Shown here: piece by piece, positions 11,543-12,106 of the stretch
How positions within the stretch are numbered: position 1 is the stretch's first letter
Layout of the letters: each line of letters starts with the position of its first letter
Origin: Eledone cirrhosa
Lineage: Eukaryota
DNA: 64,000 nucleotides
Reading direction: 5' to 3'
Assembly (NCBI GenBank): GCA_964016885.1
Contig: OZ024742.1
Location: forward strand, 320,850,001 to 320,914,000
Translations under genes and position numbers: made by a program
Notes under the pieces: model-generated
Databases searched by the model: none
Seen by the model: the letters and a program-made list of their open reading frames with translations, nothing else
Told to the model about the DNA's origin: nothing

Positions 11543-11546
<4 letters not shown>

Positions 11547-12102
11547 TTGAAATAAAATGAAAACGAAATTTCATTTCTCACTCTTAGTACGGCACTTACT
11601 TAAATGTAAGTATGTGTGTATACGTACATATGTACGTATACACACATACTTACATTTAAGTAAGTGCCGTACTAAGAGTGAGAAATGAAATTTCGTTTTC
11701 ATTTTATTTCAACTTATCGTTCTCGGTATGCCTGACCGACATAACTCACTCGATATGCAAATTAGGCTGCTCAGCCGTTAATTTTCATAAGGAAAGTATA
11801 TACTTTCGAACGTTCAACTATCTGGCAGATGGGTATACGGTGCTGATGATAGCTAACAAGCTTGAAACTAGTACATCGTTCCTGTGTCAGTGTTGAACAA
11901 AAAGGTGACGTGGTTGCCTTAACACCGTACGGCATAACATTCAGGCTGTTCAGTTTGTTTACAAACGAACAAAGCGGCGTTATAATAAGCGTCCGCTAAA
12001 CTGATACGTGCATATATGTATGTGTACCTGTATGTATATATATATATATATGCATGCTACTGTACGTCTGTATACATATATGTATGTACGTATACACACA
12101 TA

Positions 12103-12106
<4 letters not shown>
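11543..12106 (+). mobile_element. Retrozyme-like element: ~454-nt monomer with terminal redundancy plus a 5' inverted arm
   Basis: GTACGTATACACACATACTTA at 11632 and 12086. Perfect palindrome 11543-11717. Homologous to 46444-46884 and 41907-42320. Confidence 0.75.
11837..11879 (+). ncRNA. Minimal type I hammerhead ribozyme motif
   Basis: ACGGTG-CTGATGA-T-AGCT-AACA-AGCT-T-GAAA-CTAG-TA-CATCGT: stem I 6 bp with one GU, stem II 4 bp, palindromic stem III ACTAGT, predicted cleavage after GUA. Confidence 0.85.

What the first reader, a model, noticed from the sequence alone, without database searches (positions are those of the whole stretch)
11543..12106. Second family with circularly permuted, terminally redundant copies (454 vs 429 nt)
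Seen: copy 11632-12106 starts and ends with GTACGTATACACACATACTTA. Copy 46444-46884 (-) starts and ends with ATGGAAAAAATG, whose homologous position is internal in the first copy (~11700-11717). Copy 41907-42320 has a third endpoint. All three contain the same minimal HHR. Inference: the unit has no fixed ends, which is retrozyme-like.
Basis: partly seen in the sequence, partly recalled or inferred. Interest (0 to 1): 0.78.

Follow-up and report, generated by a model that had tools for sequence, protein, structure and literature searches.

The report
Permuted hammerhead mini-element with Penelope ends
Three scattered copies of a ~440-base non-coding repeat with a hammerhead-ribozyme motif start and end at different points of the same unit, but their ends cluster in one short window, as expected if a Penelope-type retrotransposon enzyme likely copied them from a longer-than-unit RNA, which makes this a new family of a known kind.

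Summary
The permutation is real. Copy A (11630-12106 +) is one 454-nt unit plus a 23-24-nt repeat. Copy B (46444-46884 -) is one 429-nt unit plus 12 nt, in another register. Both repeats are element DNA, not target-site duplications. "No fixed ends" is not supported: all six 3' ends abut a microsatellite and fall in 76 of 454 nt. In each copy one outer end lies about 65-70 nt beyond the other. This is the known Penelope-like (PLE) insertion pattern (head-to-head arm, one-sided tail, TA target), also seen in 14 of 15 other inverted-repeat islands in the window. Copy C is 5'-truncated and not redundant. The hammerhead has canonical-size helices, lacks the G10.1-C11.1 pair, and is damaged in B and C. 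Best reading: a non-autonomous, retrozyme-like unit likely mobilised by a PLE protein priming internally on a more-than-unit RNA. A circular template is possible (about 30%) but not shown. No tandem array, RNA run or helper gene was found.

The parts
11630..12106 (+). Copy A, forward: one 454-nt unit plus 23-nt terminal repeat
11542..11629 (-). Inverted arm of A: perfect 88-bp mirror of 11630-11717, no spacer; its outer end is a 3' end (long site, A-position 11714-11717) joined to (TA)n
11630..11652 (+). 5' copy of A's direct repeat
12084..12106 (+). 3' copy of A's direct repeat; ends at the short site, joined to (TA)n
11837..11879 (+). Type I hammerhead motif of A: helix I 6 bp, intact core, U-U at 10.1-11.1, helix II 4 bp, helix III 2 bp inside a self-complementary hexamer; predicted cut after 11873; helix I predicted to extend over 11812-11898 past a 3-nt bulge
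   Evidence: Rfam Hammerhead_HH9 18.6 bits, E 0.086, below gathering score 52
11489..11541 (.). (TA)n target, left of A
12107..12144 (.). (TA)n target, right of A; another HHR family (core 12237 -) abuts its far side
11479..11491 (+). 13-nt mirror of the arm's outer end across the left TA run; likely a fold-back copy, not counted as an independent end
46444..46884 (-). Copy B: one 429-nt unit plus 12-nt terminal repeat; 3' end at the long site (about A-position 11711-11713) joined to (AT)n; 82% identical to A
46882..46894 (+). Inverted arm of B: 13 nt (17 against the A-type unit), inner end equals A-position 11630, overlaps the forward copy by a 3-nt microhomology, outer end runs into (CA)n
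46708..46750 (-). Hammerhead motif of B; G8>A in the core, GUU triplet; predicted inactive
42039..42316 (-). Copy C: 278 nt, 5'-truncated 10 nt above the HHR core; 3' end at A-position 11672-11674 joined to (TA)n; 268 of 278 aligned bases identical to B
42270..42312 (-). Hammerhead motif of C; core intact, 15.2-16.2 pair broken
41912..41949 (-). C': 38-nt 3'-end piece sharing C's variants, downstream of C beyond a TA run
42340..42387 (+). 3'-end piece of a different repeat family (W), head-to-head with C across 23 unassigned nt, flush with (TA)n

Best explanation
The three copies are insertions of an ORF-less 430-454-nt hammerhead-bearing unit in (TA)n tracts, likely made in trans by a Penelope-like RT/GIY-YIG protein that would nick both strands and prime reverse transcription internally on a linear RNA longer than one unit. 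SHOWN: closed unit, permuted registers, 12-24-nt redundancy of element DNA, all 3' ends at microsatellites within 76 nt, head-to-head inverted arms with one outer end about 65-70 nt beyond the other, shared inner stop at A-position 11630. INFERRED: (i) a tandem or terminally repeated source locus is transcribed through the unit boundary; (ii) the protein primes at preferred sites 233-298 nt downstream of the predicted HHR cut (short 11642-52, middle 11672-74, long 11711-17), so the priming site sets the register; (iii) a second cDNA from the other strand, or a snap-back at the near-palindrome around 11630, makes the inverted arm; (iv) copies that run past one unit stop at a pause site (11630) or are joined by microhomology (B), which leaves the short redundancy; (v) the hammerhead would cut only as a dimer through its self-complementary helix III, so uncut RNA can serve as template. 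PLE-type mobilisation with either template form: about 0.85.
For: End map: five ends of three insertions within 73 nt of a 454-nt circle has chance 0.003, but the ends are not independent; for the three main ends alone (62 nt) it is 0.056. A and B are reciprocal: A has a short forward end and a long inverted end, B the reverse. 14 of the 15 other islands with an inverted repeat of 50 nt or more (9 families; 69 islands examined) have one arm within 11 nt of a microsatellite and the other extended 38-96 nt; four of them carry HHR cores. Known PLE features match: adjacent inverted 5'-truncated copy, one-sided 30-40-bp tail and microsatellite bias (PMC8557442 passages); palindromes at head-to-head junctions and pLTRs sufficient in trans (PMC3846280 passages); cleavage and extension of both strands of AT-rich DNA, internal RT start at two sites, uncut RNA as main substrate (PMC11167929). 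Animal retrozymes are argued to be PLE-derived, with dispersed monomers (bioRxiv 10.64898/2026.07.22.740005). No Pfam hit in 6 of 6 frames tested over A and B.
Against: Only three insertions; no whole genome is held. No PLE RT or GIY-YIG gene among 26 ORFs scanned; the RTs in the window are APE-type LINEs. No tandem source array seen. The 65-70-nt offset is longer than the 30-40 nt reported for PLE tails. Ends share 2-5 nt with the microsatellite, whereas the Anolis enzyme primes without homology in vitro. B stops 9-12 nt past its own start, which fits one turn of a circle better than a linear template. A linear template with one internal hammerhead gives the ribozyme no clear job.
Confidence: 0.55

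Rival explanations
1. Same PLE helper, but the template is a ligated HHR-to-HHR circular RNA (a true non-LTR retrozyme cycle): RT goes once round and stalls shortly after meeting its own cDNA start.
For: Both full-length copies end 12 and 23-24 nt past one turn, in different registers; chance 0.002-0.006 under uniform truncation, post hoc, n=3. Helix sizes are those called canonical in PMC4209133, the type found in retrozymes (PMC7229834). The HHR strand of A folds better than shuffles (z -5.2 against -2.3 for the other strand; -3.2 against -0.7 on a shorter core). Helix I positions 11840 G>T and 11876 T>G vary at similar frequency in X21 reads (5487 of 10512 and 5981 of 12199, unphased), which would swap G-U for U-G. 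A circular more-than-unit template was proposed in PMC4209133 and PMC7229834.
Against: A's stop at 11630 is shared with both inverted arms and nearly with C', so it looks like a pause site and needs no circle. B's 5' join can be a microhomology deletion from a palindrome centre. One HHR per copy, no dimer seen. No G10.1-C11.1 pair; B and C motifs are damaged. B folds about as well on both strands (z -4.9 against -4.2). Absence of core positions among the 40 listed variants is not significant (P 0.26).
Confidence: 0.3
2. The copies are 5'-truncated ends (pLTR plus tail) of an autonomous, ORF-bearing PLE whose terminal region is itself internally repeated; no independent small element exists.
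For: The neighbouring X, Y and W pieces look like such stubs. C starts 10 nt above the HHR core.
Against: The unit closes on itself at 429-454 nt in two registers. No unit-unrelated upstream sequence is shared by copies. The HHR has a 4-bp helix II, unlike the long helix II of PLE min-HHRs (PMC4209133) and of families X and Y here.
Confidence: 0.08
3. DNA-level origin: a MITE-like or satellite repeat whose redundancies and arms come from slippage and fold-back in TA-rich DNA, or are target-site duplications.
For: TA-centred mirror palindromes occur next door (11349-11418, 11479-11554). A's repeat lies in low-complexity sequence.
Against: The repeats are internal element sequence in the other copies. 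The permuted 46-nt block is not low-complexity (0 of 5000 shuffles). The outer end of A's arm lies within 6 nt of B's 3' end. The unit has no terminal inverted repeat of its own. A hammerhead motif is conserved.
Confidence: 0.04
4. A SINE-like element mobilised by the APE-type (L1/Tx1-like) LINEs that are abundant in the window.
For: LINE RT and endonuclease ORFs at 19.3-20.8, 48.8-50.8 and 57.0-63.6 kb.
Against: No tRNA-like head (0 genes), no poly(A) tail, no BLAST match of A, B or C to the LINE 3' ends, and overlapping head-to-head arms with a one-sided tail are a PLE trait.
Confidence: 0.03

Closest known systems
Metazoan non-LTR retrozymes (Cervera and de la Pena 2020, PMC7229834; Li et al. 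2026, bioRxiv 10.64898/2026.07.22.740005)
   Same: ORF-less small unit, GC under 45%, type I HHR with 6/4/2-bp helices and palindromic helix III, self-paired RNA, no LTR/PBS/PPT, dispersed monomers, PLE proposed as helper.
   Different: No tandem of two or more HHR units in the window. Unit slightly above the 170-400 nt of PMC7229834 but within the 51-972 nt of the 2026 preprint. No G10.1-C11.1 pair. Copies sit in (TA)n with head-to-head arms and clustered ends, which the sections I read do not describe for retrozymes. Expression and circularity untested.
Insertions of endonuclease-bearing Penelope-like elements (PMC3846280, PMC8557442, PMC11167929)
   Same: Direct terminal repeat plus adjacent inverted copy, palindrome at the junction, one-sided tail, AT/microsatellite target, 5' truncation, HHR upstream of the 3' end.
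   Different: No ORF; unit 0.45 kb instead of 3-4 kb; direct repeat only 12-24 nt; offset between ends 65-70 nt rather than 30-40; HHR lacks the long helix II of PLE min-HHRs.
Non-autonomous Chlamys PLEs such as MRC1 (PMC8557442, passage)
   Same: Non-coding PLE partners that form pLTRs and head-to-tail insertions.
   Different: Algal; 3' similarity to an autonomous partner was shown there and could not be tested here.
Rfam hammerhead clan CL00010 (Hammerhead_HH9, RF02275)
   Same: Weak full-model match at 11829-11891 (18.6 bits, E 0.086).
   Different: Far below the gathering score of 52; no hit at gathering level in the window; no hammerhead hit for B.

Membership tests
Non-LTR retrozyme | Type I hammerhead of canonical helix sizes in the unit | tested here: met
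   Helix I 6 bp plus bulge and extension, helix II 4 bp, helix III 2 bp palindromic; core intact in A
Non-LTR retrozyme | Conserved G10.1-C11.1 pair of HHRs (PMC4209133) | tested here: not met
   U-U in A, C-A in B and C
Non-LTR retrozyme | Small, ORF-less, low-GC, self-paired unit without LTR/PBS/PPT | tested here: met
   429-454 nt, GC 0.36-0.38, 66-71% paired; z -5.2; 0 Pfam hits in 6 frames; PBS/PPT not searched specifically, no tRNA gene in window
Non-LTR retrozyme | Tandem arrays with at least two HHR-bearing units | tested here: inconclusive
   0 of 3 copies in the window are tandem; no genome held; laid contigs are short and 12013-12106 was masked
Non-LTR retrozyme | Self-cleavage in vitro | not testable with these tools
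   bench test
Non-LTR retrozyme | Expressed as monomeric circular RNA | not testable with these tools
   no RNA holder was listed to lay
Penelope-like element (EN+), insertion type | Adjacent inverted 5'-truncated copy, head-to-head | tested here: met
   A 88 bp, B 13-17 bp; C abuts a 3' piece of another family
Penelope-like element (EN+), insertion type | One-sided 3' tail between two RT start sites | tested here: met
   65 nt in A, 65-71 nt in B; longer than the 30-40 nt in print
Penelope-like element (EN+), insertion type | AT-rich / microsatellite target | tested here: met
   6 of 6 3' ends abut (TA)n or (CA)n, C' after 4 extra bases
Penelope-like element (EN+), autonomous | ORF with telomerase-like RT and GIY-YIG endonuclease | tested here: not met
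   none in the unit; no GIY-YIG hit among 26 ORFs scanned
Penelope-like element (EN+), autonomous | min-HHR with long helix II and unpaired base after A9 | tested here: not met
   helix II 4 bp; neighbouring families X and Y have the long form
Non-autonomous PLE | 3'-end similarity to an autonomous PLE of the same genome | not testable with these tools
   no genome; pattern scans of metagenome, GTDB and viral collections gave 0 matches

The most novel reading that the evidence does not exclude
The copies are one-turn cDNAs of a hammerhead-generated circular RNA: a Penelope enzyme primes at either of two internal sites, goes once round and stalls 12-24 nt after meeting its own start. The family would then be a genomic record of the circular template proposed, but not shown, for PLE-mobilised retrozymes, readable across thousands of junctions.
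Probability: 0.3. Interest if true: 0.7.

Novelty: new member of a known kind. Interest (0 to 1): 0.42.

Why it matters
How animal retrozymes get back into the genome is open: a PLE helper and a circular template were proposed (PMC4209133, PMC7229834), a 2026 preprint adds co-occurrence and phylogeny but says evidence on the life cycle is limited, and the one in vitro PLE system uses uncut linear RNA (PMC11167929). This family joins a closed retrozyme-type unit to PLE-type insertion footprints in the same copies. It appears abundant (3 insertions in 64 kb; 5565 contigs of run X1 laid). A genome-wide map of start and stop sites could therefore separate linear from circular templates with no bench work. 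The parts themselves (retrozyme monomers, PLE arms and tails, non-autonomous PLEs) are all known.

Tried and rejected
No whole genome held, so no genome-wide end map. Rfam at gathering level: 0 hits; E-value mode gave mostly miRNA models on TA-rich DNA, rejected as composition. Exact-pattern scans: 0 matches in metagenome contigs, genome contigs (42) and viral contigs (43). Sequencing runs: no RNA holder listed; this is no evidence on expression. 23 runs were listed and 4 laid (X1, X21, X5, X9); the unlaid rows are not used. RAD run X21: the large loose-end piles at 11692/11693 (30,702 reads) and 11939 (30,575 reads) and all 4 listed molecule ends (11689, 11760, 11763, 11780) lie on AATT sites (3 such sites in A, a fourth in B-type copies). 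I read them as restriction cuts and chimeric ligation (enzyme inferred, not on record) and rejected them as element ends; its joints were dropped for the same reason. Only 15 of 166 joints, 23 of 577 loose ends and 40 of 119 variant rows were shown. Lack of HHR-core variants among the 40 rows: not significant. TSD reading: rejected. The 13-nt mirror left of A was dropped from the end count as a likely fold-back. The 23 nt between C and the W piece match nothing significant in A or B. Four of five look-ups in earlier findings returned nothing. The taxon was not determined; 'octopus' and 'cephalopod' were used as search words on a recalled impression of the microsatellite pattern, untested.

Full report
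SETTING. The window is microsatellite-rich eukaryotic DNA with APE-type LINE fragments; an animal is likely, and the taxon was not determined. No whole genome is held. Positions written 'A-position' are coordinates on copy A, modulo its 454-nt period.

OBSERVATION. Copy A (11630-12106 +) carries an exact direct repeat, 11629-11652 / 12083-12106, period 454. Copy B (46444-46884 -) carries an exact 12-nt repeat, period 429. B's last 57 nt align to A's 5' block (score 62; 0 of 5000 shuffles), and B aligns to a doubled A unit over 435 of 441 nt against 388 nt for linear A. The permutation therefore survives alignment. Each repeat is internal sequence in the other copies, so neither is a target-site duplication. 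Other copies in public runs agree: the loose letters upstream of 11644 in 40 contigs of X1 and 1 of X5 are the unit's TA-rich 3' block, and X5 pieces run across B's junction. X1 may be the window's own sample; X5 has another study and organism label. Copy C is 42039/41-42316 (-), 96% identical to B (268 of 278 aligned bases), starts 10 nt above the ribozyme core and is not redundant. A separate 38-nt 3'-end piece (C', 41912-41949) lies beyond a TA run.

11542-11629 is a perfect 88-bp mirror of 11630-11717 with no spacer. Copy A is thus two pieces joined head to head, and both outer ends are 3' ends running into (TA)n. B has a 13-nt inverted arm (17 nt against the A-type unit) whose inner end is the same base, A-position 11630, joined to the forward copy through a 3-nt microhomology. 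C's 5' side abuts, across 23 unassigned nt, the 3' end of another family in opposite orientation, flush with (TA)n.

THE ENDS ARE NOT FREE. The 3' ends map to 11650-52 (A forward), 11642-46 (B arm), 11672-74 (C and C'), about 11711-13 (B forward) and 11714-17 (A arm): 76 of 454 nt, 233-298 nt downstream of the predicted cut. The chance for three independent ends within 62 nt is 0.056; for five within 73 nt it is 0.003, but those five come from three insertions. A and B are reciprocal: short forward end with long arm in A, long forward end with short arm in B, offset 65-71 nt. The 5' stops are 11630 (A forward and arm, one junction; B arm), about 11633-36 (C'), 11700-03 (B forward) and 11833 (C).

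THE RIBOZYME MOTIF. A descriptor scan gave 3 strict hits in the window, one per copy, against 0 in each of 50 shuffles. Helix I is 6 bp, followed by a 3-nt bulge and a predicted long extension that is kept in A and B despite changes. Helix II is 4 bp with a 4-nt loop. Helix III is 2 bp inside a self-complementary hexamer in A and B. These are the sizes that PMC4209133 (parts 1-2 of 4 read) calls canonical and dimer-dependent, not the PLE 'minimal' form with a 7-8-bp helix II. Against activity: 10.1-11.1 is U-U or C-A instead of G-C, B has G8>A, C has a broken helix III pair, and Rfam gives only 18.6 bits (E 0.086) to Hammerhead_HH9 for A and nothing for B. The HHR fold of A costs 2.1 kcal/mol against the free fold. 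Cleavage is not shown. Without the TA block, A's HHR strand folds at z -5.2 against -2.3 for the other strand; for B the two strands are alike (z -4.9 and -4.2). In X21 reads two helix I partners vary at similar frequency in a way that would swap G-U for U-G (unphased). The lack of core variants among the 40 rows shown is not significant (P 0.26).

CONTEXT. Of 69 islands of 40-1500 nt between microsatellite runs, 16 have an inverted repeat of 50 nt or more. Leaving A aside, 14 of 15 have one arm within 11 nt of a run and the other extended by 38-96 nt; they fall in 9 families. Four carry HHR cores with a long helix II (9828 +, 12237 -, 46329 +, 47748 + / 47330 -), and three X-type copies share tail sequence on one arm only. 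This is the PLE insertion pattern: an adjacent inverted 5'-truncated copy, a 30-40-bp one-sided tail and microsatellite bias (PMC8557442, passages), with palindromes at head-to-head junctions and pLTRs sufficient for mobilisation in trans (PMC3846280, passages). PLE copies also tend to land next to one another (PMC6765202, passages), as A and B do with X-type copies. No GIY-YIG or PLE ORF was found among 26 ORFs scanned.

MECHANISM. A copy longer than one unit needs a template longer than one unit; that follows from the sequence. The Anolis PLE protein cleaves and extends both strands of AT-rich DNA, starts internally at two sites that bound the genomic tail, and uses uncut RNA in vitro (PMC11167929, parts 1-2 of 4). 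I infer the same here: priming at the short, middle or long site sets the register; a second cDNA or a snap-back at the near-palindrome around 11630 makes the arm; the forward cDNA passes through the intact HHR site and stops after one unit. I put PLE-type mobilisation at about 0.85. On template form I favour a linear read-through RNA (0.55) over a ligated circle (0.30). For the circle: both full-length copies end 12 and 23-24 nt past one turn in different registers (chance 0.002-0.006 under uniform truncation, post hoc), and the HHR has retrozyme-type geometry. Against it: A's stop is a site where both arms also stop, so it looks like a pause site; B's join can be a microhomology deletion from a palindrome centre; no dimer of HHR units was seen.

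READ DATA THAT DO NOT COUNT. In RAD run X21, 114,375 of 12.5 million reads were laid, with two piles of about 30,000 heterogeneous loose ends at 11692/93 and 11939. These and all 4 listed molecule ends lie on AATT sites, so I treat them as restriction cuts and chimeras, not element ends. The read share is not a copy number. X1 gave 5565 laid contigs, X5 25 and X9 6, so relatives exist under at least three organism labels.

COMPARISON AND NOVELTY. The unit works like a metazoan non-LTR retrozyme (PMC7229834: passages and sections 14 and 17) and inserts like a PLE. Membership as an active retrozyme is open: the tandem criterion of at least two HHR units (bioRxiv 10.64898/2026.07.22.740005, parts 1-3 of 5) is unmet in the window, the 10.1-11.1 pair is absent, and circular RNA is untested. 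It is not an autonomous PLE. That preprint already argues that animal retrozymes are non-autonomous PLE sequences and reports dispersed monomers; PMC8557442 reports non-autonomous PLEs with pLTRs. Seven full-text searches (listings and abstract starts only, apart from the papers named) found no description of this family or of junction maps for retrozyme monomers. The library lacks most subscription papers, and Repbase, Dfam and the papers' supplements were not seen. Earlier AI notes of this scan on other genomes describe similar PLE stubs; they are leads, not support.

VERDICT. Observation partly confirmed, interpretation partly supported. A new family of a known kind, with a useful test built in: genome-wide copy length against priming site would tell linear from circular templates. 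Interest 0.42.

Noticed in passing
window 9676-9934, 46124-46436, 12145-12790: Family X: three fold-back insertions beside (TA)n with a long-helix-II hammerhead (cores 9828 +, 46329 +, 12237 -) and a shared tail of about 38 nt or more on one arm only; two of them abut copies A and B tail to tail.
   Followed up: partly
window 46976-48035; related 10479-10946: Family Y: 99.5% identical 433-bp inverted arms with an HHR core on each (47748 +, 47330 -), an extra 112-bp inverted piece in the middle and a one-sided extension of about 70 nt; very young.
   Followed up: partly
window 23786-23935 (-), 15730-15882, 63581-63722, 42340-42387: Family W: HHR-like motif at 23913 (-) with a 7-bp helix I, 4-bp helix III and almost no helix II; its 3' end piece sits head-to-head with copy C, possibly one insertion from two different RNAs.
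   Followed up: partly
window 12850-13045, 14829-15028, 42769-42964, 44311-44502: Four copies of a ~196-nt fold-back family, each with an 80-82-nt one-sided extension and no HHR core; five further single islands show the same shape (15730, 15953, 16515, 18172, 22199).
   Followed up: no
window 11349-11418 and 11479-11554: Short mirror palindromes centred on TA runs, suggesting fold-back synthesis across (TA)n.
   Followed up: no
window 9910-9920 region, 46869-46879, 12143-12156, 11542-11552: Families X and Z share an 11-nt word near their 3' ends (X1/X2 with B), and X3 and A's arm end on the same 5 bases before (AT)n; may be chance in AT-rich DNA or a shared priming signal.
   Followed up: no
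window 41912-41949: C' shares C's variants and lies downstream of C beyond about 45 TA units; local duplication or an aborted first priming.
   Followed up: partly
window 25613-26018, 41233-41664, 40852-41078: Another ~400-430-nt dispersed family flanked by (ATAC)n; no HHR found by my descriptor.
   Followed up: partly
window 54959-60271, 60461-63616, 48774-51543, 18528-20825: APE-type LINE copies (RVT_1, Exo_endo_phos, zf-RVT); 56966-60271 is an open 1101-aa frame preceded by a 624-aa frame with no Pfam hit.
   Followed up: partly
window 2-8845, 31458-36361, 29085-30596: Long tandem arrays: 17-bp unit x527, 29-bp unit x169 and a CAA-rich array.
   Followed up: no
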